64,000 nt of DNA from an uncultured Gammaproteobacteria bacterium (GCA_964353785.1 CAYGWK010000001.1:26982-90981), one strand, 5' to 3'; counted from the stretch's first letter, positions 8,187 to 49,657 are shown. Made by a program: numbers and translations. Notes: generated by a model not told the origin, from the letters alone.

Positions 8187-9284
8187 TTATACTTCACCAG
8201 TAATTGTCAGTCCAGGCTCAACTTTAATTTTCTGCTCCGCCAAAGGCGGACAGGCAATAATTGGTTTGAAGTTGAAATAAGCAAAAGAAGAAACGTAGGC
8301 AGCATTATCAGTACAGAGCGCAGGAGCGGGTATGAATAATTGATAATTAGATGATTGGATAATTAGATGATTGGATAATTTTTCTCTTAATCTCTTATTT
8401 GCCGCCACCCCACCAGCTAAAAGAATTGATTTGACCTTATATTTTTCCGCTGCCCGGATGGTTCTTTCCACCAAAACATCGGTAATTGCCTCCTGGATCT
8501 CAAAAGATAATTGTTGAATGGTTAAATGGTTAAATTGTTGATTGGTTTTTAAACTTTGAACCTCGCGAATAACGGCTGTCTTAAGGCCTGAAAAAGAAAA
8601 GTCAAAATTTTCCTCCTCAATCATCGGCCTGGGAAGACTAATTCCTAATTCCTGATTCCTGTTTCCTAACCTTACTGCCGCAGCAGCAATCGCTGGTCCT
8701 CCTGGATACCCTAGCCCTAAAACCCGAGCGCATTTATCAAAACATTCACCCGAAGCATCATCTCTTGTTCCTCCGAGCCAGCGAAGTTTACCCCGACCTT
8801 TGGAGGGGTGATTTTTCATTAAAACCAAATCAGTATGGCCGCCGGAAACAACTAAGGCGATGGCGGGAAATTCCGGTTTTGATTCCAACCAATTCGCATA
8901 AATATGAGCCACCAAATGATTAACGGGTATGATTGGTTTTTTCCAAACAAGGCTTAGGGTTTTAGCGGTTTCAACTCCAACCAAAAGCGAACCGATGAGT
9001 CCGGGACCGATGGTGACGGCGATGGCGTCAATGTCATCGTGATACGTGATACGAGACACGTGAGACGTTTTACGTATTGCGTTTTGCGTATCACGTATTG
9101 CCTCCTTAATTACCGGAATTATGCAGCGGATTTGCTCCCGAGCTGCCACCTCCGGAATAATCCCCCCAGTTTTTTTATGAAGTTCAACCGAAGAGGCGAT
9201 GACATTGGATAAAATCTTTGTCCCATCCTCTACGACTGCCGCCGCCGTCTCATCACAGGAGGTTTCAATTCCTAAAATTCTCAT
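8187..9284 (-). CDS. tsaD: tRNA N6-adenosine threonylcarbamoyltransferase TsaD (Kae1/Gcp family), with three low-complexity in-frame inserts
   Basis: 'MRILGIETSCDETAAAVV', 'GGVAANKRLRE', 'LVVSGGHTDL'; inserts encoded by the repeat tracts at 8342-8380, 8641-8670 and 9039-9101. Confidence 0.85.
   Translation of the reverse strand: MRILGIETSCDETAAAVVEDGTKILSNVIASSVELHKKTGGIIPEVAAREQIRCIIPVIKEAIRDTQNAIRKTSHVSRITYHDDIDAIAVTIGPGLIGSLLVGVETAKTLSLVWKKPIIPVNHLVAHIYANWLESKPEFPAIALVVSGGHTDLVLMKNHPSKGRGKLRWLGGTRDDASGECFDKCARVLGLGYPGGPAIAAAAVRLGNRNQELGISLPRPMIEEENFDFSFSGLKTAVIREVQSLKTNQQFNHLTIQQLSFEIQEAITDVLVERTIRAAEKYKVKSILLAGGVAANKRLREKLSNHLIIQSSNYQLFIPAPALCTDNAAYVSSFAYFNFKPIIACPPLAEQKIKVEPGLTITGEV
8342..8380. 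repeat. 16-nt tandem repeat (gataattagatgattg x2.4) inside tsaD
   Basis: Direct reading. Confidence 0.8.
8641..8670. repeat. Heptanucleotide tandem tract (attccta/attcctg/attcctg/tttccta) inside tsaD
   Basis: Direct reading; encodes 'LGNRNQELGI'. Confidence 0.8.
9039..9101. repeat. GTGATAC-type heptamer tract plus inverted repeat (gtgatacg...cgtatcac) inside tsaD
   Basis: gtgatacgtgatacgagacacgtgagacg...tacgtattgcgttttgcgtatcacgtattgc; encodes 'AIRDTQNAIRKTSHVSRITYH'. Confidence 0.8.
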
Positions 9285-21857: not shown

Positions 21858-21869
21858 TTCCCCCAACTG
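21845..21869 (+). promoter_or_regulatory. Promoter module copy 3, overlapping the last codons of the LuxR gene, upstream of the receiver gene
   Basis: Identical 25-mer. Confidence 0.55.
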
Positions 21870-21886
21870 TTTACCTTGAACCGATT

Positions 21887-31957: not shown

Positions 31958-31985
31958 TTATTTATTGCAAGGCAACAAACTTTGT

Positions 31986-34825: not shown

Positions 34826-35806
34826 ATGCCCAATGAAATCTACTTAATCGCCGCTTTAATTATTGCTGGTTTAGCCATTGTCTTTTTTCTTCTAAACAAA
34901 AGGCTTTCGGAAATCAAAGAAGCGACCAAACCTGACGAGACCTTAAAAGATTGGCTTAAAAGCCAACAAGACCAAAGTCTGTCAATGTCAAAAGCGATAA
35001 ATGAAAGGCTTGATAACGCTGCTCGGGTAATTGGTCAGGTCCAGCGGAATATTGGAGAGATGTCAGAAATTGGTCGGGGAATGAAAGACCTCCAGGAATT
35101 TTTGCGTTCCCCCAAACTTCGGGGAAATATCGGCGAGCAGGTTTTGAAAGAACTTTTAGGCCAAATGCTTCCCAAACAATCTTTTCATCTTCAATATACC
35201 TTTAAATCCGGAGTAACAGTTGATGCGGCTATCAAAACTGCCTCGGGAATTATTCCGGTTGACTCAAAATTTCCGATGGAGAACTTCCGAAAAATGTTGG
35301 CCGCCAAGACCGAGGAAGAGAAAAAGATTGTTGAAAAGGAATTTGTTAAAGATGTTAAAATCCACATTGATGATATTGCCTCAAAATATATTTTAACCGA
35401 AGAGGGGACAATTGATTATGCCTTAATGTATATTCCCGCAGAAGCAGTTTATTATGAAATTGTCAATAACGCCGACCTTTTTGATTATTCTGGGAAAAAG
35501 CGAGTTTTACCAGTTTCGCCAATGACCTTTTATGCTTATTTGCGGGCAATTTTGATGAGTTTTGAAGGGCAAAAAATAGAACAAAGAGCAAGACAAATTC
35601 TGGCCGCCATTAGAGCGGTTCAAAAAGACTATCAAAAAGTTGATGAAAATTTAGGCGTTTTAGGAAAACATATTCAAAATGCCTACAATCAAATGTCAAA
35701 TGTCATGGGCGGGTTTACTCTTTTGGGCCAAAAACTCTCCTCAACCCAAGCCCTAGGAACCGGAGTTAAAGAGGAAGAAAAACAACTGAAAATCGGCGAA
35801 GAATGA
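34826..35806 (+). CDS. rmuC: DNA recombination protein RmuC
   Basis: N-terminal TM, 'LRSPKLRGNIGEQVLKELLGQMLP', 'IPVDSKFPMENF', typical of the RmuC family; TGaTATAAT at 34808-34816, 9 nt before the ATG. Confidence 0.7.
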   Translation: MPNEIYLIAALIIAGLAIVFFLLNKRLSEIKEATKPDETLKDWLKSQQDQSLSMSKAINERLDNAARVIGQVQRNIGEMSEIGRGMKDLQEFLRSPKLRGNIGEQVLKELLGQMLPKQSFHLQYTFKSGVTVDAAIKTASGIIPVDSKFPMENFRKMLAAKTEEEKKIVEKEFVKDVKIHIDDIASKYILTEEGTIDYALMYIPAEAVYYEIVNNADLFDYSGKKRVLPVSPMTFYAYLRAILMSFEGQKIEQRARQILAAIRAVQKDYQKVDENLGVLGKHIQNAYNQMSNVMGGFTLLGQKLSSTQALGTGVKEEEKQLKIGEE

Positions 35807-37358: not shown

Positions 37359-38795
37359 ATGCTTGAGAAAATCAGGCTTAAATTAGAAAAAATTCCCTCT
37401 GAATATCGTCGTTGGTCTGCTTTTGGAGTTTTACTGGCTCTTCTTTTGGCTTTACCAATAACAGTCTGGGGCCTGACTTCTGGCAGATTTGAGGTTGGAA
37501 AAAGAGCGGTCACCAGCGAAGTTACTCCAACTCCAACATTAGGCCCAGGCAAGGTCAGAGTTTATGCTTCTAAAAGCACCCATCCCTTTGGACAACCAGG
37601 AATAATCACTCTTTCTTTGGATAACGATTCTAGAAACCGCATAAATCTTATTCAATTATTTATGACCTTTGATCCGAGAGTAATTAATTTTGGAGGGCCG
37701 GATGTCGAACTATTAATGAGCGGAGAGGCTACAACTAAGGAGGTTTTCTTCATTTCGGGAGAGAAGGCCCAACTGAGACTTATATATCCGGTTAATTATG
37801 ATCTAGGTGGCGGCTCAATCGCCAACATCCATTACATGCCGGTAAATATTGGAGTCACTCAGTTAGTTTTTGAGAATGACCTTAAAACTGGTGCTTTGGA
37901 AAATAAAGTCACCGCTGTAGGAAGTGAGGAAAATTTAATAAAAGAAATTATTGGTGGTTCAGTAACGATTGTTGCAACTCCTTCTCCAACGTCTACGCCG
38001 GTTTGTAAAACAGGCCTCAATTCATTTTCTGTCTATAATTTCTGTCCCGAGGGTTCCAGGAATGCAAGATATGTGTGTTACGATGGTTTCTCGGGAACCC
38101 TGGGCGATCCAACAAGTTGCAAATCATATGATGTTTGGAGAAGATACGCGGAAGAGGCTTGTAAAGGACACAGTTCGTGCCCGACACCGACTCCTCAACT
38201 TGGTTGTCGCCAGCCTTGCAGTTCGGATAAAAATTGTGCTCCTGGATTCAAATGTGGAACGCCCTGTCCATCGGGACAACTCTGCGCTCAATATCTTTTC
38301 TGTTACAATCCCAATTGTCCTTATGATGCAGACTGCACCTGTCCGACGCCAACTCCAACACTGAGACCTTCTCCAACCCTTATACCTTGTGTTCCTGAAG
38401 GCCAAACAATGCCGGTTTATCCTGGATATCAATGTTGTCCTGGTTTAACTGCTATCTCCACCGCCAAACCTGATCAATACGGAAATTGTCCATCGCAGCC
38501 ACCGCTTGGGGCTTCTGTTTGTGCTAAGTGCGGAAATGGAATTTGTGGGTTAGGAGAAAATAAATGTAACTGTCCTAAGGATTGCCTAGCGCTGACTCCA
38601 ATCATAACAATAATCCCAACTCCGACCCCAACACCAACCCCAAGACCGACACCAAGTCCTACACCTGGTCGTTGTCCAGGAATCTGTCTTCCCAGGATAT
38701 TTTGTAGATTAATAGGTGGCACTTGTTATTCTGGTTTTAGATGTACTGGCTGGAGAGGGATTTCTCCATGTTGCTGCTTAAGGCCAAAAAGATAA
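37359..38795 (+). CDS. N-terminally anchored extracytoplasmic protein: beta-sandwich-like domain plus an extensive Cys-rich region with PT linkers
   Basis: TM 'AFGVLLALLLALPITVWGL'; about 45 Cys residues in C-x-C/CP patterns; 'PTPTPTPTPRPTPSPTPG'. Confidence 0.5.
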   Translation: MLEKIRLKLEKIPSEYRRWSAFGVLLALLLALPITVWGLTSGRFEVGKRAVTSEVTPTPTLGPGKVRVYASKSTHPFGQPGIITLSLDNDSRNRINLIQLFMTFDPRVINFGGPDVELLMSGEATTKEVFFISGEKAQLRLIYPVNYDLGGGSIANIHYMPVNIGVTQLVFENDLKTGALENKVTAVGSEENLIKEIIGGSVTIVATPSPTSTPVCKTGLNSFSVYNFCPEGSRNARYVCYDGFSGTLGDPTSCKSYDVWRRYAEEACKGHSSCPTPTPQLGCRQPCSSDKNCAPGFKCGTPCPSGQLCAQYLFCYNPNCPYDADCTCPTPTPTLRPSPTLIPCVPEGQTMPVYPGYQCCPGLTAISTAKPDQYGNCPSQPPLGASVCAKCGNGICGLGENKCNCPKDCLALTPIITIIPTPTPTPTPRPTPSPTPGRCPGICLPRIFCRLIGGTCYSGFRCTGWRGISPCCCLRPKR

Positions 38796-38842: not shown

Positions 38843-41743
38843 ATGGCTGAAGAGAAGAAATTAAATAAGGAGCAACTTGAGGCAGTTAAACATGGTGAAG
38901 GTCCGCTTCTGATTATTGCTGGGGCCGGAACGGGGAAAACGACGGTTATTACCGAGCGAATTAAGTGGTTGGTTTCCTCTGGGAAAGCAAAACCCGCAGA
39001 AATCCTGGCTTTAACTTTCACTGACAAAGCCGCTCGGGAAATGGAAGAACGGGTGGATATTGCCATGCCTTTAGGCTTTATCCAAATGTGGATTTCTACT
39101 TTCCACTCTTTCTGCGACCGAGTTTTGCGAGCCGAAGCCTTACATATTGGTCTTGACCCAAAATATAATCTTTTAACCGAGGCAGAAACTATTCAATTTT
39201 TACGAACCAATCTTTTTAAATTTGACTTAAAATACTTTAGACCCCTAGGAAATCCTAATAAATTTATTGCCGGCATGCTTCAACATTTCTCGCGGCTTAA
39301 AGACGAGGATGTTAGTCCGGAAGAGTACCTTAAATACGCAAATAAACAAATGTCCAATAAACAAATTTCAAATGAGGAGAAGGAGAAGACGCTTGAGTTG
39401 GCGAAAGCATATAAAACTTATGAAGAATTAAAAGTTAAAGAGGGAGTGATGGATTTTGCTGATTTAATCTCCAATACCCTAAAACTTTTTCGGACCAGAA
39501 AAAATGTTTTAAAAGAATATCAAGATAAGTTTGAATATATTTTAGTTGATGAATTTCAAGACACAAATTATGCCCAAAATGAACTAGCCATGCTTTTGGC
39601 GGGCCCGCCTGCCGGCGAGGCAAGCAAGAAAGCAAACTTGACCGTGACCGGAGATGATGACCAGAGTATTTATAGATTTCGGGGGGCAGCCGTCTCAAAT
39701 ATTATTCAATTTCGGCAAAATTATCCCAAGGCAAAAATCGTGGTTTTGACCAAAAATTATCGTTCAACTCAGGAAATTTTAGACCAGGCCTACAATTTAA
39801 TTCAAAACAATAACCCTGACAGACTTGAGGTTAAAGAAAAAATTATAAAAAAACTTGAGGCAGTCCGGAAAATAAAAGGAGGAAAAATTGGTTTTGTCAA
39901 AACCGACCGGGTAGAAAACGAGGCCGAAGCAGTGGCAGAGACAATTAAAAAGCTCCAAGCTTCAAGTTCCAATTTCAAATATTCAGATTTTGCTATTTTG
40001 ATTAGGGCAAATAATCACGCTGATGCTTTTGTCCGGGCGCTTGCCAGGGCGGGAATTCCTTATCAGTTTTTGGGTCCGGGAATGCTTTTTCGCCAGCCAG
40101 AAGTCAAGGATTTAATCGCTTATCTTAAAGTTTTATATAATTTTGAAGATTCAGTGGCCATGTATCGGATTTTGGCCATGGATTTTTTTGAAATTTCTCC
40201 TCGAGATTTGGCGGCCATTTCCAATTTCGGGCGTCGCCAGAACCTTTCCCTTTTCGAAGCTTGTGAGCAGGTCGATAAAGTCTTCGTTTCTCAAAAAACT
40301 CGGGAAACCGTAGAAAAAATAGTTAAAATGATTCATCGCCATTTAGGCTTGATTAAAAAAGAAACCGCCGGCCAGATTCTTTATTATTTTTTAGAAGATA
40401 CCGGACTCCTTCGGAAATTGGCTGAATACAAAACTCCGGTCGAGGAACGCCGGGCCCAAAATATTTCCAAATTTTTTGACAAATTAAAAACTTACGAAGT
40501 TGAACATGAAGACGCCAGCGTGTTTGTGGTTTCTGATTGGATTGACCTTTCTTTGGAACTTGGAGAATCACCTTTGGCGGCAGACATGGATTGGACTGAA
40601 GTTGATGCGGTCAATATTTTGACCGTTCATTCTAGCAAAGGCTTAGAATTTCCGATAGTTTTTTTGGTAAATTTGGTTTCCCAAAGATTTCCGACAATTG
40701 AACGAAGAGAGCAAATTCCAATTCCTGAAGCGTTAATTAAAGAAATCTTACCAGTAGGTGATTATCATCTTGAGGAGGAGCGCCGGCTTTTTTATGTGGG
40801 CATGACTCGAGCCCAAGATTTACTATTTTTGACTGCCGCAGACTTCTATGGCGAAGGAAAAAGAGAAAGAAGGCTTTCCCCATTCGTCTTTGAGACTCTG
40901 GGAGAGGAAGCAATTAAGCGATTGGGGAATTTAGCAATTGAGGAAAAGCAGTTATCTCTCCTGGAGTGGGCAAAACCAGCGGAAACATCCCGAATTATCC
41001 AATCATCTAATTATCCAATTAACTACTTATCTTTTTCCCAAATTGACACTTTTAATACCTGTCCTTTGCAATATCGTTATAAATTCATCCAGCGGATTCC
41101 TGTTCTGCCCGGAGCGGCGGCTAGTTTTGGAGATTCAATTCATAAAACTTTGCGAGATTTTTATCAAAGAGTAAAAAAGGGAGAAAAGTTAACAAAAAAA
41201 GACCTACTTAAAATCTTGGAGATTAACTGGTCATCTCAAGGATACGCCAGCAAAATCCATGAGGAAAAGATGAAAAAGGTTGGGGAGCGGATGCTGTCTG
41301 ATTTTTATGAAAAATTTGATTCAAAAATTGTTCCTCGCGATTTAGAACAATCATTTATTATCAAAGTTAGCCCAAATCTTAAAATTGGGGGAAAAATTGA
41401 CAGGATTGATGAAAAAGAAGGAAAAATTGAGATTATTGACTATAAGACCGGCAAGATTTTAGAGCAAAAAGATATTGATAAATCCTTACAGATGACGGTT
41501 TATGCCTTGGCCGCCACTGATAAAGGGCTTTACGACAAAAAACCAGAAGAGGTAGTCTTAACTTTTTATTTTCTGGAGAATTTAGAAAAGAAATCAACAA
41601 AAAGAACAGTAGAACAGTTAAAACAGGCTAAAAGCCAGCTTCTTGAAAAGGCAAAAGAAATTGAAAAAAGTACCTTTGAACCAACCCCTGGAGTTTGGTG
41701 TGATTTTTGCGACTTCAAACTAATCTGCGAAGCCTGGCAATAA
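38843..41743 (+). CDS. UvrD/PcrA-family helicase fused to a C-terminal PD-(D/E)xK (RecB/AddAB-like) nuclease with a Cys cluster
   Basis: Walker A 'IIAGAGTGKTTVITERI', 'VDEFQDTN', 'LTKNYRST', 'VHSSKGLEFP'; C-terminal 'IIDYKTGK', 'GVWCDFCDFKLIC'. Confidence 0.75.
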   Translation: MAEEKKLNKEQLEAVKHGEGPLLIIAGAGTGKTTVITERIKWLVSSGKAKPAEILALTFTDKAAREMEERVDIAMPLGFIQMWISTFHSFCDRVLRAEALHIGLDPKYNLLTEAETIQFLRTNLFKFDLKYFRPLGNPNKFIAGMLQHFSRLKDEDVSPEEYLKYANKQMSNKQISNEEKEKTLELAKAYKTYEELKVKEGVMDFADLISNTLKLFRTRKNVLKEYQDKFEYILVDEFQDTNYAQNELAMLLAGPPAGEASKKANLTVTGDDDQSIYRFRGAAVSNIIQFRQNYPKAKIVVLTKNYRSTQEILDQAYNLIQNNNPDRLEVKEKIIKKLEAVRKIKGGKIGFVKTDRVENEAEAVAETIKKLQASSSNFKYSDFAILIRANNHADAFVRALARAGIPYQFLGPGMLFRQPEVKDLIAYLKVLYNFEDSVAMYRILAMDFFEISPRDLAAISNFGRRQNLSLFEACEQVDKVFVSQKTRETVEKIVKMIHRHLGLIKKETAGQILYYFLEDTGLLRKLAEYKTPVEERRAQNISKFFDKLKTYEVEHEDASVFVVSDWIDLSLELGESPLAADMDWTEVDAVNILTVHSSKGLEFPIVFLVNLVSQRFPTIERREQIPIPEALIKEILPVGDYHLEEERRLFYVGMTRAQDLLFLTAADFYGEGKRERRLSPFVFETLGEEAIKRLGNLAIEEKQLSLLEWAKPAETSRIIQSSNYPINYLSFSQIDTFNTCPLQYRYKFIQRIPVLPGAAASFGDSIHKTLRDFYQRVKKGEKLTKKDLLKILEINWSSQGYASKIHEEKMKKVGERMLSDFYEKFDSKIVPRDLEQSFIIKVSPNLKIGGKIDRIDEKEGKIEIIDYKTGKILEQKDIDKSLQMTVYALAATDKGLYDKKPEEVVLTFYFLENLEKKSTKRTVEQLKQAKSQLLEKAKEIEKSTFEPTPGVWCDFCDFKLICEAWQ

Positions 41744-42542
41744 TTGGATTATAGAATTTTGTGAAACTTTCTGGATATTCAATTTCTTTCCCTCCAAAAC
41801 TTTTCTTAAAATGAGAAAAACCGAGCCAGGATTTTTGGGGAAATCTTTCGTCATAAATTCCCTCAAAATCAAAAACTTCACAATTTTTTCTTTTTGCTAA
41901 TTTTATTGCTTCCCAGACAACTAAATATGGAGCAGATAATTTTCGTCCTTCGGGAGTTGAGGCGGCGTGGAAATAATAAGCAGTTTTGTCAGAGAATAAG
42001 ATTAGGGCACCAGCGAGAGGATGGCGAGACGTGATACGTGATATGTGATATGTAAGAAAGAGATGAGCGTTTTTACCAAAAGCCTGATAAATACTTCTAA
42101 TTTCTTTGCCAAAAGGAATCCAGAAACCGCGACGAAGGGCATTTTTATGCCAGATTTTAATAAATAATTCGATATCTTCGGATTGTTTGACAATGATTTT
42201 ATTGCGAAGCAACAAACTTTGTTTATTTTTTTCTGCTTTTCTGATTTCATAGCGAGCATCTTTTTTAAATTGAGCAAAAATTTTTTCTTCAGATTGAGTT
42301 AAGTCTACCTGAAGAGTTTTTGTGGGAGAATAATTTATTTGAACAGCAAAGGCATGATATTTTTTAGCAAGACTTTCAAGTTTTTTTGCTGAAATTTTAG
42401 ATGGTAGTCGCTGGATTTTAATAAAATTACCAAGAATTGGAAGATGGCGAATATAAAATCGGAAGTTTTTTTCTTTACCGACAATCCAGTTGATTTTCTC
42501 CATAAAACAGGCAAATTCAGAAGATTGGCGTAAGTCTTGCAT
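41715..42542 (-). CDS. FemAB-family (aminoacyl-tRNA-dependent peptidyltransferase) protein; short, mainly the C-terminal GNAT-like half
   Basis: 'GALILFSDKTAYYFHAASTPEGRKLSAPYLVVWEAIKLAKRKNCEVFDFEG' is the FemAB C-domain signature. Confidence 0.55.
   Translation of the reverse strand: MQDLRQSSEFACFMEKINWIVGKEKNFRFYIRHLPILGNFIKIQRLPSKISAKKLESLAKKYHAFAVQINYSPTKTLQVDLTQSEEKIFAQFKKDARYEIRKAEKNKQSLLLRNKIIVKQSEDIELFIKIWHKNALRRGFWIPFGKEIRSIYQAFGKNAHLFLTYHISRITSRHPLAGALILFSDKTAYYFHAASTPEGRKLSAPYLVVWEAIKLAKRKNCEVFDFEGIYDERFPQKSWLGFSHFKKSFGGKEIEYPESFTKFYNPIIARLRRLV
42026..42052. repeat. GTGATAC/GTGATAT heptamer tract inside the FemAB gene (the same motif as in tsaD at 9039)
   Basis: gagacgtgatacgtgatatgtgatatg; encodes 'TYHISRITSRH'. 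Confidence 0.8.
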
Positions 42543-42749: not shown

Positions 42750-43769
42750 TTATATTGATATTCTTGCTTTTGTTCTTAAAAATATCCAGCGGAATTTGTC
42801 AGCCAGATTGTAGAAAGGATAAAGATAGGGATTTAAAACTAAGTCATAAGTGCCGATAAATTCGATAAGCTCGGGAGAGAATCCAAGCTTAAAGCGGTGG
42901 AAACCAAACCAGGGATCAGATGGCAGAGGATTAGGTCCTGGAGTCCCCCAAAGGTCAAAAATCTTACATTTTTGTCTTTTGCCAAATTGAATTGCTTCCC
43001 ACATCATGGCGTAGGAAGGCATGACCTCTCTATGTTCTCGGGAGGAGCCACCATAAGGGTAATATAAAACTTTATTGAAAACAAAGACAATCCAGGTGAC
43101 TAAAGGCTTTCCTTTATATTTGGCCACCAGGAGATGAGCAATACCTGAAGGATTAAGAATTTCCCACATTTTTCGGTGATACTTGGGAGTATGAGCATAA
43201 AATCCTTGTCTTTTGGTTGTTTCTAAAAGAAGTTTTAAGTGGGTTTCAAACGCCTCTGGAGAATTTTCTTCGGTCACGGTCACCCCATATTTTTGAGCGA
43301 GCCGAAGATTATAGCGAGTTTTGGAATGCATTGCCGTTATAAATTCTTCATTTTTTTTGCTCAAATCAAGCCAGAAAGTATATTTGGGAAAATTGGGCTT
43401 TCCCATCCGACAGTTATTCTCCAAAAGAAATTTTTCAATGTTTTCAAAACCCGAGGCTTTCTGAACTGCCGGCTCCATTTTGACAAAAATGGCATTTTCC
43501 TGCCTTCCAATTTTTGCTAAAGACTGAAGCATTGGTTTGTCAGGAAGCGGGCCTTTGGGAAGGTAAATAATTGAATAAGAAGTGTGGGGAATTGGGTGGA
43601 CGGTTGCTTGATAACCGGAAATTAATTTTTTACCCTCAAAAACTCCAAGTCTTAAGACTTTTTGCCCTAAATTTTCCCGAAACTCTCCCCATTCCCAAGA
43701 TTGGAGAGGATGAAGAGCAAAAGAATTGAAAGCGGATTTTTCTACATCTTGAACTTCACGAATGAGCAT
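42750..43769 (-). CDS. FemAB-family protein (full length)
   Basis: 'HLLVAKYKGKPLVTWIVFVFNKVLYYPYGGSSREHREVMPSYAMMWEAIQFGKRQKCKIFDLWG'. Confidence 0.65.
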   Translation of the reverse strand: MLIREVQDVEKSAFNSFALHPLQSWEWGEFRENLGQKVLRLGVFEGKKLISGYQATVHPIPHTSYSIIYLPKGPLPDKPMLQSLAKIGRQENAIFVKMEPAVQKASGFENIEKFLLENNCRMGKPNFPKYTFWLDLSKKNEEFITAMHSKTRYNLRLAQKYGVTVTEENSPEAFETHLKLLLETTKRQGFYAHTPKYHRKMWEILNPSGIAHLLVAKYKGKPLVTWIVFVFNKVLYYPYGGSSREHREVMPSYAMMWEAIQFGKRQKCKIFDLWGTPGPNPLPSDPWFGFHRFKLGFSPELIEFIGTYDLVLNPYLYPFYNLADKFRWIFLRTKARISI

Positions 43770-43808: not shown

Positions 43809-44759
43809 ATGACAAAAAAGAAAATCTTTTTGGCTTTGGGAATTTTGGGGCTAGTAATACTGTTTGCGGCCTCGGCGATTTTTGGATTTTTCTTTTTTTA
43901 TAAACAAAGTTTGTTGCTTCGCAATAAAGGAAAAGAAAGGGTAAATCTTCTCTTTTTGGGCGAATCTGGTCCAGGACACCAAGGAGCAACCTTGACCGAT
44001 ACAATAATTTTTACCTCGGTCTCAAAAAAAGGAACAGTTTTGTTGTCCATTCCCCGGGATATTTGGTACCAACCATTACAGACAAAAATTAATTCTTTAT
44101 ATTTTTATGGAGGTTTAGCTCAAGAGGAAGAGGTGATGGGGGAAATTTTAGGACAAAGAATTGATACAGTGGTGTTAGTTGATTTCGACACCTTTGTTAA
44201 AACAATTGATTTTTTAGGAGGAATAGATGTTTATGTGGAAGGGACATTTGATGATTTTAAATATCCAATTCCTGGAAAAGAGGAGGATTTATGTGGCGGC
44301 GACAAAACTTTTGCTTGCCGATATGAGCATATTCATTTCGAGGCCGGCTTAAAACACTTGGATGGACAAACTGTCTTAAAATTTGTCCGTTCCCGCAATG
44401 CCATAGGTGACGAGGGGACAGATTATGCCAGGTCTCGCCGGCAGCAAAAAGTAATTGCTGCCTTAAAGAGCAAGATTTTTTCACCCTGGTTTTTGTCTAA
44501 GCCGGGAAATATTTTAGGTCTTTGGAAAGTTTTAAACCAGGGACTTAAAACTGATTTTAAAATCGATGATTTAATTCCTTTGGTAAAAATTTTGGCTACT
44601 CCTTCTTCAAGAAAAATGAGTACCTTTGTTTTGGATGGATGGGAGACAGCTGAAGGATATTTATATCATCCTCAAAAACATTCTTCTGGGCAATGGGTTC
44701 TTTTGCCTGTTGGGGAAAGCTGGGAAGGGATTCACAGTTTTGTGGAATCAATCTTGTAA
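43809..44759 (+). CDS. LytR-CpsA-Psr (LCP) family cell-envelope phosphotransferase
   Basis: TM, then 'VNLLFLGESG...TLTDTIIFTSV...LLSIPRDIWY', typical of LCP; TATAAT at 43796-43801, 7 nt before the ATG. Confidence 0.7.
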   Translation: MTKKKIFLALGILGLVILFAASAIFGFFFFYKQSLLLRNKGKERVNLLFLGESGPGHQGATLTDTIIFTSVSKKGTVLLSIPRDIWYQPLQTKINSLYFYGGLAQEEEVMGEILGQRIDTVVLVDFDTFVKTIDFLGGIDVYVEGTFDDFKYPIPGKEEDLCGGDKTFACRYEHIHFEAGLKHLDGQTVLKFVRSRNAIGDEGTDYARSRRQQKVIAALKSKIFSPWFLSKPGNILGLWKVLNQGLKTDFKIDDLIPLVKILATPSSRKMSTFVLDGWETAEGYLYHPQKHSSGQWVLLPVGESWEGIHSFVESIL

Positions 44760-46795
44760 ATCTTGGTCTTTCCTGATTGAAAAACAATTTCTCCAATTTG
44801 AGCAAATTTTTCTTCAGAAATTTTATACTTTTCTCTTTCTTTCTCTCCGACAAAAATATATTGGACGTTATATTTTTTAATTAAATCTAAAGCCTGATCT
44901 TTATTCTTTGTTTCATAAATTGCTTGGACTTCGTTTGCTCTTTTTCCTGGCTCATCAAAACTTCCTCGCCAGAGCCATTCATGAACTAACCAGCCCTCAA
45001 TTGTTGGTAGTCCAGTTAGGGCAGAGACTCGGTTAAAAAGAGTGTAACTGTCTCCGCTTGCCTCTAAAACTACTAGTTGATTCTTAATATTTTTGTTTAA
45101 CCAGGTAATTGCTTGATAATCATCTGGAGAGGTTCTTTTTAAAAATGAAAGACCATATAAGCCATGATAAATTTTTAAATTACCATAATATGAATTAATG
45201 GCAAAGTAGGGATAAATAAAAACAAAAGTAAAAAGTAAAAAGTAAAAAGCAAAAAGCATAAATTTTAAAACTTTCTTTTTTAACGAAGTGAGAATTTGAA
45301 CAATGATGTATCCTGAAGCGAGAGCGTACATCATAAAAGATTGGTAAACCAGTTTAAACATGGTGTTGGCGCGATGATAAGAGGGAATATAGATATCCTT
45401 AACATAGAAAAATTCTGGGATAATGATTAAAAAGGTGGCAACAGAAATAAGAATTAAGATAAAGATGTCAGGAATTTGTAATTGGGAATTAGTGATTCTT
45501 TTCTTGAGAACCAGGAAAATAATAAAACTTAAAAAAATTATCCATTGATAACCCCATAAAACCAAAAGTTGCCAGAAAGGAGAGTGGGCATTAACTGAGG
45601 CAATTCCCTTAGCGATTTGGGAAAAGGAAAGATTAAAGGGAAGAGAGAAGAGAATACTACCAGTAAGTACCAATACTACCAACCCGCCTGCCAGCGCCTT
45701 CGGCGCAAGCCGATGGCGGGCAGGTAAACCAATATTTAAAAATGATTTATAGAAAATTGTTGCTCCTAAAATTGAAAAATAAATCGGAAAATCCCAAGAA
45801 TTGGTCATATATAAGACGCCCAGGAGCAAAGATATAAAGATATAAAGAGATAAGGAGGGTTTCTTGGACGCAAAAATAGTGAAGACTGTTGCGAGAAATA
45901 AAAGAACAAAGGGAATATTAGAGACGTGCCCATGTAGGTCGGAAACCACAAAGGAATAAATAGGAAATTCGTGAATAGTGTTATCGATTGCCCCAAATTT
46001 TTCCACAATAAACCGGGTAGCATCAGGATACCAATAAGCGGCAAAATTGAAATTATGGGTTAAAAACCACCAAAAGGCATGAAGATTGCCACCCAGGGTT
46101 AATAAAAAGGCAGAGAGTAGACCGCCAATAAATACCAATTTCCAATAATTACCAATTTTCAATTTCAAATGAAATATGAGATTTGATGCCAGGGAGAATG
46201 TACCCGTAAAAGTTAGGGCGAAAATGGTAGCAATCATTAGGTTGTAGGTAATAGCTGGATCTATTCCGGAAAGTTTTGTTAAAACAGCGGCCACCAAATG
46301 CCCGAAATAATAATAGTTAATGGTTTTTCCGGCCATCCACATATCCAAAGGAGGAAAATATTGACTGCGGAGAATAGAATTAACAAATCCGAAATCCATA
46401 AATTTCTCAAGTCCCTCAATATCAGGTTGAAAACCACGGATAAAAGACCAAGAGGTTAGGGCGACAAAGAAAAGAATTTCTTCAAAAAATAAAATCTTCC
46501 AGGATTTTTTAAGAGACGTCTTAAACTCTCCCTCGTTTTTCTTAGCCAAAATTATATTTAGTCCTGCCAGAACTAAAACTGTAAGCCAAATAGTTGGAGT
46601 TCCGAAAGGAAGAAGATGAAGGCTGCCCAAAAGCCAGACAAAATAACTGACTAGCAAAATGGCAATTATTTTTGAAAATGAATATCCAAGGTCAAAAAAT
46701 TTTTTGAAAAACCACCAAGTTAGGGGCAAAAAAGCCACCCCTAATCCGAAAAGTAAAAACCACCAAGAAAAAATTATGAAAAAATCAGAAATCAT
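44732..46795 (-). CDS. Large polytopic membrane protein with a C-terminal soluble domain (DUF2298/YYY-type, putative glycosyltransferase-like)
   Basis: More than 14 TM segments; C-terminal 'PTIEGWLVHEWLWRG...KYNVQYIFVGEKEREKY'; contains a heptamer tract. Confidence 0.35.
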   Translation of the reverse strand: MISDFFIIFSWWFLLFGLGVAFLPLTWWFFKKFFDLGYSFSKIIAILLVSYFVWLLGSLHLLPFGTPTIWLTVLVLAGLNIILAKKNEGEFKTSLKKSWKILFFEEILFFVALTSWSFIRGFQPDIEGLEKFMDFGFVNSILRSQYFPPLDMWMAGKTINYYYFGHLVAAVLTKLSGIDPAITYNLMIATIFALTFTGTFSLASNLIFHLKLKIGNYWKLVFIGGLLSAFLLTLGGNLHAFWWFLTHNFNFAAYWYPDATRFIVEKFGAIDNTIHEFPIYSFVVSDLHGHVSNIPFVLLFLATVFTIFASKKPSLSLYIFISLLLGVLYMTNSWDFPIYFSILGATIFYKSFLNIGLPARHRLAPKALAGGLVVLVLTGSILFSLPFNLSFSQIAKGIASVNAHSPFWQLLVLWGYQWIIFLSFIIFLVLKKRITNSQLQIPDIFILILISVATFLIIIPEFFYVKDIYIPSYHRANTMFKLVYQSFMMYALASGYIIVQILTSLKKKVLKFMLFAFYFLLFTFVFIYPYFAINSYYGNLKIYHGLYGLSFLKRTSPDDYQAITWLNKNIKNQLVVLEASGDSYTLFNRVSALTGLPTIEGWLVHEWLWRGSFDEPGKRANEVQAIYETKNKDQALDLIKKYNVQYIFVGEKEREKYKISEEKFAQIGEIVFQSGKTKIYKIDSTKL
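45221..45262. repeat. Heptamer tandem tract (aacaaaa/gtaaaaa x3/gcaaaaa/gcataaa) inside an ORF
   Basis: Direct reading; encodes 'MLFAFYFLLFTFV'. Confidence 0.8.
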
Positions 46796-48456
46796 AAACT
46801 AAGCAATATTTTAAGACTTTCCACCGGGAGACGCTTTTTATTAGCAAAGATGAGAACTTTAGGGTGGTCGTAGACTTGGAAGGTCTCCTCGGAAGTGTCA
46901 TCGTTGATGGTTATTCCTAAAAGTGAAGGATAAGAAGAAAATTCGGCAATTTTAGTGTAACCCAGTTCTCCAGCAAATAGAAGTTTATAATAGCGACTGG
47001 TTATTGGATATTTTTCTGGCAGATTAATTAAAGTTCCATATAGCCGGCGACTGTTAATGACAATATAATCTGCTTGAGAAAGTTTTTCTGCATAGTAATT
47101 AATTTTTTGAATATTGTCTGGTTCATAAATGGTGAGTGCCTCAATTTGGTATTGGCCTGGATTATCTGTATCCAGAGGAATAGGTAAACCATCATCCCAG
47201 TGTTCACCTAAGATTTTTGCTCCTTTTGGAATATTTTGATAAATAAAGCGAGAAGCAGCGATTCTAGTGGACTGCCTGGTATAAATAGAGAAAAAAGCCA
47301 AGGACCAAAGAAAAGTAAGAGCAAGAAAAAGAGTAAGAGTTATTCCGCCAAAAATCTTAGATTTTTTCCAAACCCCAAAAAGAAACCAGGCAGCAAAAAT
47401 TGCTAAAAATGGCAAAACTGGAACCATAAAGCGGATAAATTTTGTGTGCCAAGAGCCGACATAGACAAAATAAACAACGGGAAATGAAAGTAAAATAAGC
47501 AAAGCTTGTTGTTTCGCAATTAGGAGTTTTTTATCGCGAGTTTTGAGAGCAATTACTAAGAGTAAGATTGCTCCCAAAATCCCCAAAAATGCAACTGGGC
47601 CCATTTGCCAAAAAAAGTTTTTAATTTGGAAAAGATAAGGAAAAGTTTTTTCAAACTGGAGAACATAAACAACTTTAAGTCTCCCCAAAACCACTCCAGT
47701 TTCATAATTCATAGACTCTAAAAATTTTTGTTTATCTAAAAATGTGTAAGGAGAAAACACAAAAAATGTTAAAAAGCCCACCAGAAGAGAAACTAAAAAT
47801 CTGAACTGATACTTTAAATATTTAAAGTGGACAAGAATTTGAACAGCGATTGGGATAATCAAAAATGAAAGGGCTGAAATCTTGGTTGCTACTGCCAATC
47901 CCAAAATAATTCCTATTTTTAGATAATTTTTAAAAGTTGGGTTTTGAGAGATTTCAAAAGAAAAAATAGAAAGAAGTACAAGCCAGAAAATAAGCATGTT
48001 TTCGGTCACGCCAAAATGGGCGGTTTGGATAAGAGAGGGGCAAAAAGCGACAAGGAATGAAGCTAAAATCCCAATTTTCTCATCCCAAATTTTTTTGGTC
48101 AAGAGGAAAACTAAAAGAATCGTTAGCGATGACAAGAAGGCGGAAACACCTCTACCGATAAGATTAATGTAAGCCCAATTAGAAACCCAACTTTGGTTTT
48201 TAGTTATCAAGACCAAAAAATCGCCAATTGCTCGATAAAGATAAACTGGCAGTCCTCCATAGGCAAAAAATTCTGGGTTAAGTTGGTCAAAAAAGTGGAT
48301 ACGAGAAACCGCTGAAGCAATATTTCGTTCGTCGGGATGAAAGAAATGTCCTTGGTCCCAATTTAAATTATAGAAACGGAGAAAAGCACCAATAAAAGCA
48401 ACAAGCAATAAGCAATAAGCAATAAGCAAATTTTGACTAGGAATTTTCAATTTCAT
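46792..48456 (-). CDS. GT39/ArnT-like polyprenyl-phosphate-dependent membrane glycosyltransferase (third paralog)
   Basis: 'FFHPDERNIA' DE-motif loop, 12+ TM segments. Confidence 0.5.
   Translation of the reverse strand: MKLKIPSQNLLIAYCLLLVAFIGAFLRFYNLNWDQGHFFHPDERNIASAVSRIHFFDQLNPEFFAYGGLPVYLYRAIGDFLVLITKNQSWVSNWAYINLIGRGVSAFLSSLTILLVFLLTKKIWDEKIGILASFLVAFCPSLIQTAHFGVTENMLIFWLVLLSIFSFEISQNPTFKNYLKIGIILGLAVATKISALSFLIIPIAVQILVHFKYLKYQFRFLVSLLVGFLTFFVFSPYTFLDKQKFLESMNYETGVVLGRLKVVYVLQFEKTFPYLFQIKNFFWQMGPVAFLGILGAILLLVIALKTRDKKLLIAKQQALLILLSFPVVYFVYVGSWHTKFIRFMVPVLPFLAIFAAWFLFGVWKKSKIFGGITLTLFLALTFLWSLAFFSIYTRQSTRIAASRFIYQNIPKGAKILGEHWDDGLPIPLDTDNPGQYQIEALTIYEPDNIQKINYYAEKLSQADYIVINSRRLYGTLINLPEKYPITSRYYKLLFAGELGYTKIAEFSSYPSLLGITINDDTSEETFQVYDHPKVLIFANKKRLPVESLKILLSL
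48405..48425. repeat. Heptamer tandem tract (gcaataa x3) at the 5' end of the GT39 gene
   Basis: Direct reading. Confidence 0.8.
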
Positions 48457-49657
48457 TGGCGATTTTTTCTCCTAACTCTATGGCATAATTTATTCCTCGG
48501 TCCCAGGGATAAAATTGTTGCATGTTGGCAAGAAAGACATTGGGGATTGGGGTTTGAGGCGGAGGAATAAGACTGGAATAGTTTACCGGAATAACGGGTT
48601 GGGCATCAAGACTGTGTGACAAGTGACAAGTGACAAGTGACAAGTGATTAAATTTTGGGTTGATTTTCTGAAGATAGGGCAAGAATTCCTTGAAAATTTC
48701 CTCTTTGGTCATTTTGAAATAGGGGTGATTTTGGGGATAGTAGCCACCAACATAGAGAAGATGATTTCCACCGTAATATTTTTGGTCAACAAAATTAGTA
48801 TGTTCAACCACGGCCACAAAAGGAAGACTAGGTTCGTTGATATTCAACCAATAAGTGCCACCGGTTAAGAATTTTTCTTTTAGAACCAGAATTAAATTAA
48901 GAGCCCCGAGCATTTCTGGCAGTTTTGTTTTTTTGAAAAATGTTTGGGTTGGAGTAGTAATAATAACCCTGTTAAACTTGTTAAAATGATTTAAGTCATT
49001 TAAGGAAGTAATTTCCTGGTTTAGATAAATTTCTCCACCGCCATCTCTTATTTTTTCTACCAACCTGTTAATTAAAACCTGAAATCCGCCCTCAAAATAT
49101 CCAAGTCTCTGACTTCTTTTTTTGATTCTTGCCCAAAACCAAGACATAGAAATTTTTTCTGCCTGATTTCCAAATTTTCCTAAAAGGAGTGGTTTCCATA
49201 AAATCTCAAAAGAGCGTTTTCCATAATATTTTTTAAGCCAGGAAAAAGCAGTAATATTTTCAAAAGATTTCCAGTCGCTTGTTAGTTTTAAATAACTAGT
49301 GATTATTCCAGTACGAAGTCTGTTAGGAAATGAGAGAAAGGGAAAAGAGATAAGAGATAAGGGAGAGTCAAATTGAGAAATTTTTCCTTGATAAAAAATT
49401 GAAGTTTTTGGTCGAGTGTAAAAAAGTTTGCTGGAAAGTCCAAGTTCGGATATTAAATTCTGGGCTGCCGAATCAGAGGTAAATAGATGATGGAAAAAAT
49501 ACTCCAGAGACCAATCCCAACCTTTTTCTTTAAATCCGGCGGCTAAGCCTCCGGGAAATTTTTCTTTTTCAAAAACAGAAACCTTATGTCCCTTTTGGGA
49601 AAGTCTATAAGCAGCGGCTAAACCAGTAAAACCTGCTCCGATAATGACAATTCGCAT
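48437..49657 (-). CDS. FAD/NAD(P)-binding oxidoreductase (amine-oxidase/UDP-galactopyranose-mutase-like fold)
   Basis: 'MRIVIIGAGFTGLAAAYRLSQKGHKVSVFEKEKFPGG' is a Rossmann GxGxxG dinucleotide-binding motif. Confidence 0.55.
   Translation of the reverse strand: MRIVIIGAGFTGLAAAYRLSQKGHKVSVFEKEKFPGGLAAGFKEKGWDWSLEYFFHHLFTSDSAAQNLISELGLSSKLFYTRPKTSIFYQGKISQFDSPLSLISFPFLSFPNRLRTGIITSYLKLTSDWKSFENITAFSWLKKYYGKRSFEILWKPLLLGKFGNQAEKISMSWFWARIKKRSQRLGYFEGGFQVLINRLVEKIRDGGGEIYLNQEITSLNDLNHFNKFNRVIITTPTQTFFKKTKLPEMLGALNLILVLKEKFLTGGTYWLNINEPSLPFVAVVEHTNFVDQKYYGGNHLLYVGGYYPQNHPYFKMTKEEIFKEFLPYLQKINPKFNHLSLVTCHLSHSLDAQPVIPVNYSSLIPPPQTPIPNVFLANMQQFYPWDRGINYAIELGEKIANEIENS
48616..48650. repeat. Heptamer tandem tract (gtgacaa x4 plus gtgatta) inside the oxidoreductase gene
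   Basis: Direct reading; encodes 'NHLSLVTCHLSH'. Confidence 0.85.

What the first reader, a model, noticed from the sequence alone, without database searches (positions are those of the whole stretch)
42026..42052. The same GTGATAC/GTGATAT heptamer tract is inserted in two unrelated genes (tsaD and a FemAB paralog)
gagac-gtgatac-gtgata... occurs inside tsaD (9039-9066) and again inside the FemAB gene (42026-42052), both on the coding (minus) strand. Both produce an '...SRIT..YH/HISRITSRH' peptide insert. A shared ~20-nt motif in two non-homologous ORFs implies a mobile or templated micro-insertion (a MITE-like or repeat-seeding process) rather than independent slippage.
Basis: seen in the sequence. 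Interest (0 to 1): 0.6.

Follow-up and report, generated by a model that had tools for sequence, protein, structure and literature searches.

The report
In-frame heptamer repeats in protein loops
Two unrelated housekeeping genes of an uncultured Patescibacteria genome carry the same 7-base tandem repeat in frame in surface loops; it is one case of a wider habit of this lineage, in which short repeat cassettes occupy fixed loop slots and are quickly overwritten, sometimes by copying from other genes.

Summary
CGTGATACGTGATA lies at 9038-9051 (tsaD) and 42030-42043 (FemAB-family gene). Both copies are in frame on the coding (minus) strand and both encode 'SRIT'.

- It is not a MITE: no defined ends, no target duplication, and only 14 shared bases.
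- The FemAB tract is not a new insertion. Orthologues have the same 35-nt, five-heptamer slot with a conserved xCxTxTC skeleton.
- The tsaD tract is lineage-specific: 63 nt, +42 nt relative to the closest relative, which has an octamer array there.

The window has about 5-8 times more period-7/8 arrays than controls, almost all inside ORFs. In at least 8 loop slots of 5 genes, orthologues carry different repeat units at the same site, often with the same length.

Copying between unrelated slots is shown for other cassettes:
- a 16-mer cassette, 27/27 nt identical between tsaD and a UvrD-type helicase;
- a 24-nt dispersed element that is present or absent between relatives;
- a 122-nt cassette present twice in a relative's tsaD.

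For the GTGATAC pair itself, copying is plausible but unproven. A 14-nt ectopic match occurs for 13% of control segments, while unit sharing among arrays exceeds chance (P about 0.01).

Verdict: a new variant of known heptanucleotide and small dispersed repeats, of moderate interest.

The parts
9036..9098 (-). tsaD loop insert: nine degenerate heptamers (coding strand ATACGTG ATACGCA AAACGCA ATACGTA AAACGTC TCACGTG TCTCGTA TCACGTA TCACGAT) = 21 codons (IRDTQNAIRKTSHVSRITYHD)
   Evidence: sequence and frame. (+42 nt relative to L003). (site is hypervariable in length, 0 to about 60 aa, across TsaD orthologues). (end of helix 44-71 plus coil 72-86, pLDDT 62). CpG density 0.14 per nt against 0.029 for the window.
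9042..9053 (.).
   Evidence: DNA fold -14.6 kcal/mol, z -2.9, 12-bp stem.
9087..9098 (.). Right arm (CGTATCACGTAT on + strand) of the same inverted repeat: one heptamer copy in the opposite orientation
42019..42053 (-). FemAB-family loop tract: five heptamers (coding strand ACATATC ACATATC ACGTATC ACGTCTC GCCATCC), peptide TYHISRITSRHP
   Evidence: Period-7 autocorrelation 0.75, 0 of 5000 shuffles reach it. It is the tip of a beta-hairpin (strands 159-167 and 175-184, pLDDT about 78-80). Slot of the same length in L001, L002, L087, L088 and L099. No hairpin.
48611..48652 (-). Third array of the same degenerate family ACNTNTC: (TCACTTG)x4.6 in a flavin amine-oxidase-type gene (ORF 48437-49657), peptide NHLSLVTCHLSHS
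   Evidence: (family D12). Orthologue L090 has (TCAATCA)x5 of equal length at the same site.
8340..8380 (-). tsaD 16-mer cassette (AATTATCCAATCATCT)x2.4, peptide LSNHLIIQSSNYQL. Context: proof that cassettes are shared between unrelated genes
   Evidence: I2. (25-27 nt exact match to the helicase). (42 of 43 nt identical to L004, where the gene as a whole is 68% identical). L003 has (AAATTGG)x5 there.
40993..41031 (+). Copy of the same 16-mer cassette in the UvrD/PD-(D/E)XK helicase-nuclease gene (ORF 38843-41743), same frame (IIQSSNY)
   Evidence: Absent from the closest orthologue L087, which has degenerate heptamers of equal length. L090 and L098 carry other repeats.
42198..42226 (-). 24-29-nt dispersed element (ATAAACAAAGTTTGTTGCTTCGCAATAAA) lying in frame in the same FemAB gene (8-aa insert NKQSLLLR). 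Other copies at 28160-28195, 31961-31992 and 43900-43928; a degenerate copy at 47498-47519
   Evidence: 5 matches against 0.01 expected. (the 43905-43928 copy is absent in L088). (8-aa insert only in P0121/P0122-type orthologues).

Best explanation
The two tracts are in-frame short tandem repeats of a heptanucleotide. The coding-strand unit is ACGTATC, with variants ACATATC, ACGTCTC and ACGTGTC. They sit in surface loops of two unrelated housekeeping enzymes of a Patescibacteria (Microgenomates/Gottesmanbacteria-like) genome.

In this lineage certain loops act as permissive 'slots' that hold a short-period cassette of period 7, 8 or 16. The slot position, and often its length, is kept by selection for reading frame and loop size. 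The content turns over much faster than the surrounding gene.

Inferred turnover mechanism: replication errors at short repeats. These would be slippage that expands, contracts and homogenises units; intrastrand template switching that creates inverted copies, as in the 12-bp inverted repeat of the tsaD insert; and occasional copying of a cassette from another locus by microhomology-mediated, SPDIR-like or ectopic template switching.

Shown:
- The FemAB tract is an old resident of its slot.
- The tsaD tract is a recent replacement and expansion.
- Cassette copying between unrelated slots happens in this genome and its relatives.
- The coding-strand orientation is forced, because the reverse orientation gives TGA.

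Inferred, at about 40%: the tsaD tract was seeded from an ACGTATC-type array, either the FemAB tract or one outside the window, and was later remodelled.
For: Excess of arrays:
- 12 period-7 and 4 period-8 arrays against 1.4 and 0.3 in shuffles.
- 18.8 period-7 arrays per 100 kb against 3.9 in 1.24 Mb of diverse bacteria.
- 10-100 per 100 kb in most of the related (mostly Patescibacteria-type) loci fetched; two short ones had none.
- Nearly all arrays lie inside ORFs.

Same slot, different content in orthologues:
- tsaD sites 1, 4 and 6.
- FemAB loop: window ACRTATC, L001 and L002 degenerate RCNTNTC, L099 a perfect (CACCAAT)x5, all 35 nt.
- Helicase, two slots.
- Amine oxidase.
- RNase H.
- DUF2298 gene.

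The slots are loops.

The tsaD insert is absent from the closest relative and contains a 12-bp inverted repeat.

Copying between slots:
- 27/27 nt between tsaD and the helicase, beyond the control maximum.
- The 24-nt element is present or absent between relatives.
- A 122-nt cassette occurs twice in L006 tsaD, 106/122 identical.
- The cassettes are the longest identical runs between window and L004 tsaD, which are 68% identical overall.

Unit sharing among arrays exceeds chance: P(3 or more pairs) = 0.008. The unit ACGTATC is rare (frequency 0.0005). Both tracts are CpG-rich in a CpG-poor genome.
Against: - Only 14 nt are exactly shared (23/28 in the best register). 12.7% of control segments have an ectopic match that long.
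- The order of variant units differs between the two tracts, so no patch longer than 14 nt can be traced.
- No other ACGTATC array was found in about 190 kb of related genomes.
- A (TYHVSRI)n peptide query found only 21 short hypothetical ORFs among 5.8 billion proteins. No clade-wide source of this unit is visible.
- The replication mechanisms are inferred from sequence patterns. None was observed directly.
- Homologous recombination between diverged alleles also contributes to mosaic blocks. FemAB 42264-42297 matches, at protein level, the more distant P0126 rather than the closest relative. This could explain part of the patchy distribution.
- Only 64 kb of the genome could be examined.
Confidence: 0.6

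Rival explanations
1. Direct templated seeding. The tsaD insert was copied from the FemAB tract, or from a sister array elsewhere in the genome, by ectopic template switching or annealing of a single-stranded fragment at microhomology. It then diverged. The two tracts would be homologous by descent.
For: - A rare CpG-containing unit is shared by two of about 13-17 arrays (P about 0.006; 3 sharing pairs, P 0.008).
- Both tracts also contain the ACGTCTC variant.
- The FemAB tract is older and the tsaD content is new, so a donor-to-recipient direction exists.
- The same kind of event is documented for the 16-mer cassette, the 24-nt element and the L006 122-nt cassette.
Against: - Only 14 nt are identical, which is within the control range for ectopic matches.
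- The ACGTATC-ACGTCTC adjacency of the FemAB tract is not present in tsaD.
- The first half of the tsaD insert (ATACGCA AAACGCA ATACGTA AAACG) has no FemAB counterpart.
Confidence: 0.4
2. Independent origin. Each array arose and evolved in its own slot by local slippage, and the identical unit is coincidence or convergent drift of two arrays.
For: - With 13-20 arrays, at least one pair sharing a unit is expected in 11-33% of trials.
- FemAB orthologues show that the unit can drift in situ (RCNTNTC variants).
- A 14-nt ectopic match is not unusual.
- The unit is not seen elsewhere.
Against: - Three sharing pairs in one 64-kb window is unlikely (P 0.008-0.014).
- The unit ACGTATC is one of the rarest in the genome, yet it was hit twice.
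- Replacement of period-8 by period-7 content in tsaD site 1 between genomes 84% identical is not simple in-situ drift.
Confidence: 0.3
3. A discrete miniature mobile element (MITE, REP or RPE-like) that inserted into both genes.
For: - The tsaD insert has a 12-bp perfect inverted repeat and folds better than shuffles.
- In-frame palindromic insertions are known in Rickettsia (PMC10969869).
Against: - The FemAB tract has no inverted repeat (z -0.6) and is not an insertion relative to orthologues.
- There are no shared ends and no target-site duplication. Shared length is 14 nt, and the tracts measure 35 and 63 nt.
- No transposase or RAYT-type gene was seen among the nine proteins scanned against Pfam. 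The remaining ORFs were not scanned.
Confidence: 0.03
4. Functional selection. The tract encodes a useful peptide (SRIT/YH motif) or a nucleic-acid signal, or it is a phase-variation switch, since 7 is not a multiple of 3.
For: - Both tracts encode 'SRIT'.
- L001 FemAB keeps YHVSHITYH.
- Heptamer SSRs can drive phase variation in pathogens (established knowledge; PMC4692102).
Against: - The closest FemAB relatives encode SRLSPVACH, and L099 encodes HQSPITNHQSPI, in the same slot.
- tsaD relatives have unrelated or no sequence there.
- All orthologues examined are in frame.
- The genes are housekeeping, not surface or restriction-modification genes.
- No Rfam family matches.
Confidence: 0.04

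Closest known systems
Long simple-sequence repeats of 5-11 nt, especially heptanucleotide repeats, in prokaryotic genomes (Mrazek, Guo and Shah 2007, as summarised in PMC4692102 and PMC4679880)
   Same: Head-to-tail arrays with a 7-nt unit, over-represented relative to chance. The proposed origin is polymerase slippage. Content and length vary between close relatives.
   Different: That literature reports that units that are multiples of three are the ones most likely to lie in coding regions (PMC4679880). Here, non-triplet arrays sit in frame inside conserved housekeeping genes, at loop slots shared by orthologues. The host is a Patescibacteria genome, not covered by those surveys.
Cyanobacterial STRR heptamers and small dispersed repeats (SDR; Elhai et al. 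2008, Genome Res 18:1484, cited in PMC3116915; content recalled from memory because the paper is not held)
   Same: Heptameric tandem repeats occur together with very small (about 21-27 nt) dispersed elements. Those elements can lie inside genes and nested within heptamer arrays. The window shows a 24-nt element in 4-5 copies and a GC hairpin nested in a (TCAAATG) array at 3070-3112.
   Different: The phylum and the sequences differ. Here the GTGATAC unit is seen at only 2-3 loci rather than hundreds, and most arrays are coding. No sequence relationship to the SDR families was tested.
Rickettsia palindromic elements (RPE), selfish DNA inserted in frame in protein-coding genes (PMC10969869)
   Same: In-frame insertion of repeated DNA into unrelated metabolic and housekeeping genes, at positions compatible with the fold. 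The tsaD insert is partly palindromic.
   Different: RPEs are elements of about 100-150 bp that form defined families with conserved consensus sequences. The tracts here are 35 and 63 nt of tandem heptamers with no common ends.
[quoted passage not shown]
   Same: Mechanisms that write short ectopic or inverted sequence into a gene using microhomology at the replication fork. They fit same-length patch replacement and the inverted copy in tsaD.
   Different: They are known as rare laboratory mutation events in Acinetobacter and E. coli. They are not known as a pervasive shaper of loop sequences, and nothing here demonstrates the mechanism directly.
Borg tandem repeats that create disordered protein regions (PMC9879509)
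   Same: Rapidly evolving, recently formed tandem repeats inside ORFs that add loop or disordered peptide segments.
   Different: I did not open that paper. From memory, repeat units inside Borg genes are divisible by three and belong to archaeal extrachromosomal elements. Here the units are 7 or 8 nt, read in all three frames, in a bacterial chromosome.

Membership tests
Heptanucleotide long SSR (tandem repeat) | Head-to-tail copies of one short unit (5-11 nt) | tested here: met
   TRF: 9038-9068 period 7, 4.4 copies, 83% matches; 42031-42053 period 7, 3.3 copies, 93% matches. Autocorrelation at period 7 is 0.75 for the FemAB tract and 0.66 for the 74-nt tsaD block 9034-9107.
Heptanucleotide long SSR (tandem repeat) | More arrays than expected from composition | tested here: met
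   12 period-7 arrays against 1.4 in shuffles. 18.8 per 100 kb against 3.9 in 1.24 Mb of other bacteria.
Heptanucleotide long SSR (tandem repeat) | Unit-number or unit-type variation between close relatives (slippage) | tested here: inconclusive
   The array at 45224-45258 has (TGCTTTT)2(TACTTTT)3 where L088 has (TGCTTTT)3(TACTTTT)2. For the two GTGATAC tracts no same-species genomes or reads were available.
MITE / REP-type miniature mobile element | Terminal inverted repeats at the element ends | tested here: not met
   FemAB tract: no inverted repeat, fold z -0.6. The tsaD insert has an internal 12-bp inverted repeat built from the heptamer units themselves, and it is not shared with the FemAB tract.
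MITE / REP-type miniature mobile element | Target-site duplication and an empty site in orthologues | tested here: not met
   No flanking direct repeats. The FemAB slot is occupied and of equal length in orthologues. For tsaD the orthologous site is occupied by other repeats rather than empty.
MITE / REP-type miniature mobile element | Several copies sharing full length and boundaries | tested here: not met
   Only 14 nt are shared (D12, 67). No further copy in the window or in the related loci.
Cyanobacterial STRR-type dispersed heptamer family | The same heptamer unit in tandem at many loci of a genome | tested here: inconclusive
   Two exact loci and one degenerate locus in 64 kb. The rest of the genome could not be fetched.
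Cyanobacterial STRR-type dispersed heptamer family | Predominantly intergenic location | tested here: not met
   15 of the 16 period-7/8 arrays listed are inside ORFs.
Rickettsia-type in-frame palindromic element (RPE) | In-frame insertion in conserved genes at fold-compatible sites | tested here: met
   ORFs are intact and Pfam domains continuous. The inserts fall in a coil and a beta-hairpin tip with lowered pLDDT.
Rickettsia-type in-frame palindromic element (RPE) | Element of about 100-150 bp with a family consensus | tested here: not met
   The tracts are 35 and 63 nt, with no consensus beyond the heptamer unit.
Phase-variable contingency locus | Out-of-frame alleles among relatives, in genes for surface or restriction-modification functions | tested here: not met
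   All orthologues are in frame. The genes are tsaD and a FemX-type transferase. Population reads were not testable.
Borg-like amino-acid tandem repeats | Repeat unit divisible by three (criterion recalled from memory; PMC9879509 was not read) | tested here: not met
   The unit is 7 nt, so three units are read in three frames to give a 7-aa peptide period.

The most novel reading that the evidence does not exclude
Microgenomates-type Patescibacteria may have a pervasive, length-preserving 'patch-overwriting' process. It would repeatedly rewrite surface-loop segments of housekeeping genes with short-period cassettes and GC-rich hairpins copied from elsewhere in the genome or pan-genome. That would explain why some cassettes (the 16-mer IIQSSNY cassette and the hairpin TGCCTGTCCGCCTTTGGCGGAG) are the most conserved nucleotides between orthologues only 68% identical, yet are absent from closer relatives. 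The GTGATAC pair would be one product of that process. This would be a new class of very small, transposase-less mobile or templated DNA in the candidate phyla radiation.
Probability: 0.2. Interest if true: 0.7.

Novelty: new variant of a known kind. Interest (0 to 1): 0.45.

Why it matters
If the slot-and-cassette picture holds, several consequences follow.
- Part of the well-known 'odd insertions' and length inflation of candidate-phyla-radiation proteins would come from a mutational process, not from adaptation.
- Alignment-based phylogenies and protein models of these organisms should mask such loops.
- The pattern offers a natural system for studying how non-triplet repeats are tolerated in frame. 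Three units are read in three frames, which restricts usable units to those free of stops in every frame.
- It also offers a way to study how very short DNA is copied between unrelated genes without any known transposase.

For the specific GTGATAC pair the stakes are modest. It is one example, and not the strongest one.

Tried and rejected
- Genome-contig scan with TsaD. I used them only as a background for array density.
- Attempts to reach the rest of the 122,610-bp source contig through the look-up of encoding contigs with P0001 and two end-of-window ORFs: not on record.
- Exact search for ACGTATCACGT in all fetched loci: none. Search for the degenerate family in relatives: only the orthologous FemAB tract of L001.
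- Peptide search with (TYHVSRI)x6 to find in-frame arrays of this unit anywhere: only 21 short hypothetical ORFs, none in a conserved family.
- Restriction-site idea, that the ACGT core is avoided genome-wide. ACGT is at its second-order expectation (38 against 37.4). However, 6 of the 38 sites sit in the tsaD insert.
- Rfam and tRNA scans: nothing at the sites.
- Literature searches for heptamer repeats in Patescibacteria/CPR found nothing specific. Elhai et al. 2008 is not held in the library.
- MITE, phase-variation and functional-peptide readings were rejected, as set out under the rival explanations.

Full report
**1. Observation**

The motif is present as described. On the + strand, CGTGATACGTGATA lies at 9038-9051 and at 42030-42043. 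GTGATAYGTGATA with up to 1 mismatch matches only at these places, against 0.01 expected from shuffles. Both copies lie in minus-strand ORFs. ORF 8187-9284 is TsaD (PF00814, E 6e-80). ORF 41715-42542 is a FemAB-family transferase (PF02388), next to a second FemAB paralogue at 42750-43769. Named homologues indicate an uncultured Patescibacteria genome of the Microgenomates/Gottesmanbacteria type. The source contig is 122,610 bp.

- In tsaD, nine degenerate heptamers (NNACGNN) span 9036-9098: 63 nt, 21 codons, peptide IRDTQNAIRKTSHVSRITYHD.
- In the FemAB gene, five heptamers span 42019-42053: ACATATC ACATATC ACGTATC ACGTCTC GCCATCC, peptide TYHISRITSRHP.

**2. Significance**

The raw 14-nt match is weak evidence. 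12.7% of random 50-nt control segments have an ectopic exact match of 14 nt or more in the window.

The stronger argument concerns arrays that share a unit.
- If 13-20 arrays drew their units independently from the genome's heptamers, at least one sharing pair is expected in 11-33% of trials. A pair sharing this particular rare, CpG-containing unit is expected in about 0.6%.
- The window contains three sharing pairs among 17 TRF period-7 arrays: GTGATAY at 9038 and 42031, TCAAATG at 3098 and 35689, and AAAAAGT at 34684 and 45224. P(3 or more pairs) is about 0.008.
- Both GTGATAC tracts are CpG-rich, at 0.14 and 0.086 CpG per nt, against 0.029 for the window.
- A third array of the same degenerate family ACNTNTC lies at 48616-48647.

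**3. Context: a genome full of in-frame short-period arrays**

Period-7 arrays are the most over-represented class, with 12 against 1.4 in shuffles. Period 8 gives 4 against 0.3, and period 16 gives 2 against 0. Almost all are inside ORFs. Density is 18.8 per 100 kb against 3.9 in 1.24 Mb of diverse bacteria. Most of the related (mostly Patescibacteria-type) loci fetched show 10-100 per 100 kb; two short ones had none. tsaD alone carries arrays at four or more sites.

**4. Orthologue comparison**

- FemAB slot. L001, L002, L087 and L088 have a tract of the same 35 nt with a conserved xCxTxTC skeleton and significant period-7 autocorrelation (P 0.007-0.012). L099 has a perfect (CACCAAT)x5 of the same length. 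More distant orthologues have a loop 6-7 residues shorter. So the five-heptamer slot predates the window's lineage. It is not a fresh insertion.
- tsaD site 1. The closest relative L003 (84% nt identity) has (ATTNAGCC)x4 and is 42 nt shorter. L004 has (GTGCAAA)x4. L006 has a 122-nt complex cassette. Some orthologues have nothing there. The window's content is therefore lineage-specific.
- Other slots. The 'same slot, different unit, often same length' pattern recurs at several places:
  - tsaD sites 4 and 6;
  - two helicase slots;
  - the amine-oxidase gene, TCACTTG x4.6 against TCAATCA x5;
  - RNase H;
  - a DUF2298 gene.
- Between genomes about 84% identical, many of the hyperdivergent blocks and of the indels of 6 nt or more are short-period arrays, GC-rich hairpins or a 24-nt element.

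**5. Structure**

AlphaFold models built from the orthologue alignments place the tracts in loops.
- The tsaD insert falls at the end of helix 44-71 plus coil 72-86, with pLDDT 62.
- The FemAB tract falls at the tip of a beta-hairpin between strands 159-167 and 175-184, with pLDDT about 78-80.

The slots are permissive surface loops.

**6. Is copying between loci real here?**

Yes, for other cassettes.
- The 16-mer cassette AATTATCCAATCATCT... is 27/27 nt identical (36/39 overall), and in the same frame (IIQSSNY), in tsaD (8340-8380) and in the UvrD/PD-(D/E)XK helicase (40993-41031). It is absent from the closest helicase orthologue L087, which holds an unrelated tract of equal length.
- A 24-29-nt element has 4-5 copies. 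One copy lies in frame in this same FemAB gene. The copy at 43905-43928 is absent from L088 and is flanked by TTTAT on both sides.
- In L006 a 122-nt cassette occurs twice in one tsaD gene, at loop sites 1 and 2, with 106/122 identity and no gaps.
- Between the window and L004 tsaD (68% identical overall), the longest identical runs are the 16-mer cassette (25 + 16 nt) and a GC hairpin TGCCTGTCCGCCTTTGGCGGAG (22 nt). Both are missing from the closer relative L003.

**7. The GTGATAC pair itself**

- There are no common boundaries, no target duplication, and the order of variant units differs.
- The FemAB tract has no hairpin (z -0.6).
- The tsaD insert contains a perfect 12-bp inverted repeat (9042-9053 and 9087-9098; -14.6 kcal/mol, z -2.9). 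This means one heptamer copy in the opposite orientation, the kind of product expected from an intrastrand template switch.
- The shared coding-strand orientation is explained by selection. (GTGATAC)n puts TGA into every frame within three units, while ACGTATC is free of stops in all frames (direct reading; one search gives the stop-free census).
- The unit is not a clade-wide cassette. No other ACGTATC array was found in about 190 kb of relatives. A (TYHVSRI)n query found only 21 short hypothetical ORFs among 5.8 billion proteins. By contrast, AATCAYC arrays recur in four genomes and at least three slots.

**8. Interpretation**

Best supported (0.6): these are loop-slot tandem-repeat cassettes with rapid turnover through replication slippage, template switching and occasional ectopic copying. 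The FemAB tract is an old resident and the tsaD tract is a recent replacement.

Whether tsaD was seeded from an ACGTATC-type array is open (about 0.4), as is independent origin (about 0.3). A discrete MITE-like element (0.03) and functional or phase-variation readings (0.04) are rejected. Some patchiness may also come from homologous recombination between diverged alleles, as in the mosaic block at 42264-42297.

**9. Comparison with known systems**

- Over-representation of heptanucleotide repeats and the slippage hypothesis are known (Mrazek 2007, via PMC4692102 and PMC4679880). That work reports triplet-multiple units as the ones most likely to lie in coding regions.
- Cyanobacterial STRR/SDR elements (Elhai 2008, from memory; reference) and Rickettsia RPEs are the closest analogues for tiny repeats inside genes.
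- SPDIR is the closest known mechanism for short ectopic patches.
- I found no report of this pattern in Patescibacteria.

Rating: new variant of a known kind. Interest 0.45 for the finding as given. The wider cassette phenomenon is the more interesting lead.

Noticed in passing
window 28160-28195, 31961-31992, 42197-42232, 43900-43928; degenerate copy at 47498-47519: A 24-29-nt dispersed element, ATAAACAAAGTTTGTTGCTTCGCAATAAA, made of two small palindromes (AACAAAgTTTGTT and TTGCttcGCAA). It gives 5 matches against 0.01 expected. One copy is an in-frame 8-aa insert (NKQSLLLR) in the FemAB gene. The copy at 43905-43928 is absent from the syntenic relative L088 and is flanked by TTTAT on both sides. 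Relatives' FemAB copy carries two substitutions that also occur in the 47498 copy.
   Followed up: partly
window 8340-8380 and 40993-41031; L004 10884-10914: A 16-mer cassette (AATTATCCAATCATCT)n encoding IIQSSNY is 27/27 nt identical in tsaD and in a UvrD/PD-(D/E)XK helicase. It is 42 of 43 nt identical to the tsaD cassette of L004, although the two genes are only 68% identical. It is absent from the closest relatives at both sites.
   Followed up: partly
window 8235-8256, 39605-39625, 45683-45724, 3083-3097; L024 9810-9856; L088 (insert opposite window ~45484); L090 helicase: GC-rich hairpin mini-inserts lie in frame in AT-rich genes, with peptides such as ACPPLAE and GPPAGEA. The type is CCTGTCCGCC-N3/4-GGCGGAG. 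The 42-nt insert at 45683-45724 folds at -17.2 kcal/mol (z -3.35). They are present or absent between genomes 84% identical. The tsaD copy is 22/22 nt identical to L004. Two related hairpins sit in tandem in an unrelated Patescibacteria locus (L024).
   Followed up: partly
window 3070-3112 (ORF 1754-3670) and 35689-35705: The hairpin TCCGCCACAGGCGGA is nested inside a (TCAAATG) heptamer array, giving NVKC-SATGG-SNVKC in frame. The same heptamer unit TCAAATG also forms an array in another gene at 35689. As I recall it, SDR elements in cyanobacteria are nested in heptamer repeats in the same way.
   Followed up: partly
L006 1129-1250 and 1408-1529 (tsaD of P0045; P0017 similar): A 122-nt complex cassette (octamer array, then a unique segment, then a second octamer array) occurs twice in one tsaD gene at two different loops, 106/122 identical without gaps. 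It encodes ...KQLNSKTVKQNTEAADYRSTDSPF... at both sites.
   Followed up: partly
window 42264-42297 (FemAB): A 34-nt block of equal length is unrelated to the closest relatives (L087/L088: LPLDQIQKQMK). Its peptide QSEEKIFAQFK is identical to the more distant homologue P0126. This is a mosaic pattern suggesting homologous recombination between diverged lineages.
   Followed up: no
L085 (Dehalococcoidia), L024 and L012 (other Patescibacteria), L031 (Anaerolineales): Period-7 arrays are also dense in some Chloroflexota and other Patescibacteria loci, up to 50 per 100 kb against a background of 3.9. The heptamer excess is therefore not confined to this genome's clade.
   Followed up: no
window 20255-20295, 21071-21111, 21845-21885: A 41-nt sequence, TTTTATGATATAATTCCCCCAACTG..., is repeated upstream of three consecutive plus-strand ORFs. 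Two copies are 95% identical. It looks like a shared promoter or leader of tandem genes.
   Followed up: no
window 49786-49983 (ORF 49687-50193), 38606-38665, 23742-23778: Pro/Thr-rich 24-nt (8-aa) tandem repeats of about 8 copies, and related PT-linker repeats in two other ORFs. These are triplet-multiple repeats, a different class from the heptamers.
   Followed up: no
whole window: GATC (observed/expected 0.31), TGCA (0.42), TCGA (0.61) and CGCG (0.63) are under-represented relative to second-order expectation. This is consistent with avoidance of restriction sites. ACGT is not avoided (1.02).
   Followed up: no
window 57716-60653: Three consecutive minus-strand ORFs share a 300-nt segment at 75-78% identity, indicating tandem paralogues. 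tRNA-Cys lies at 23077-23151.
   Followed up: no
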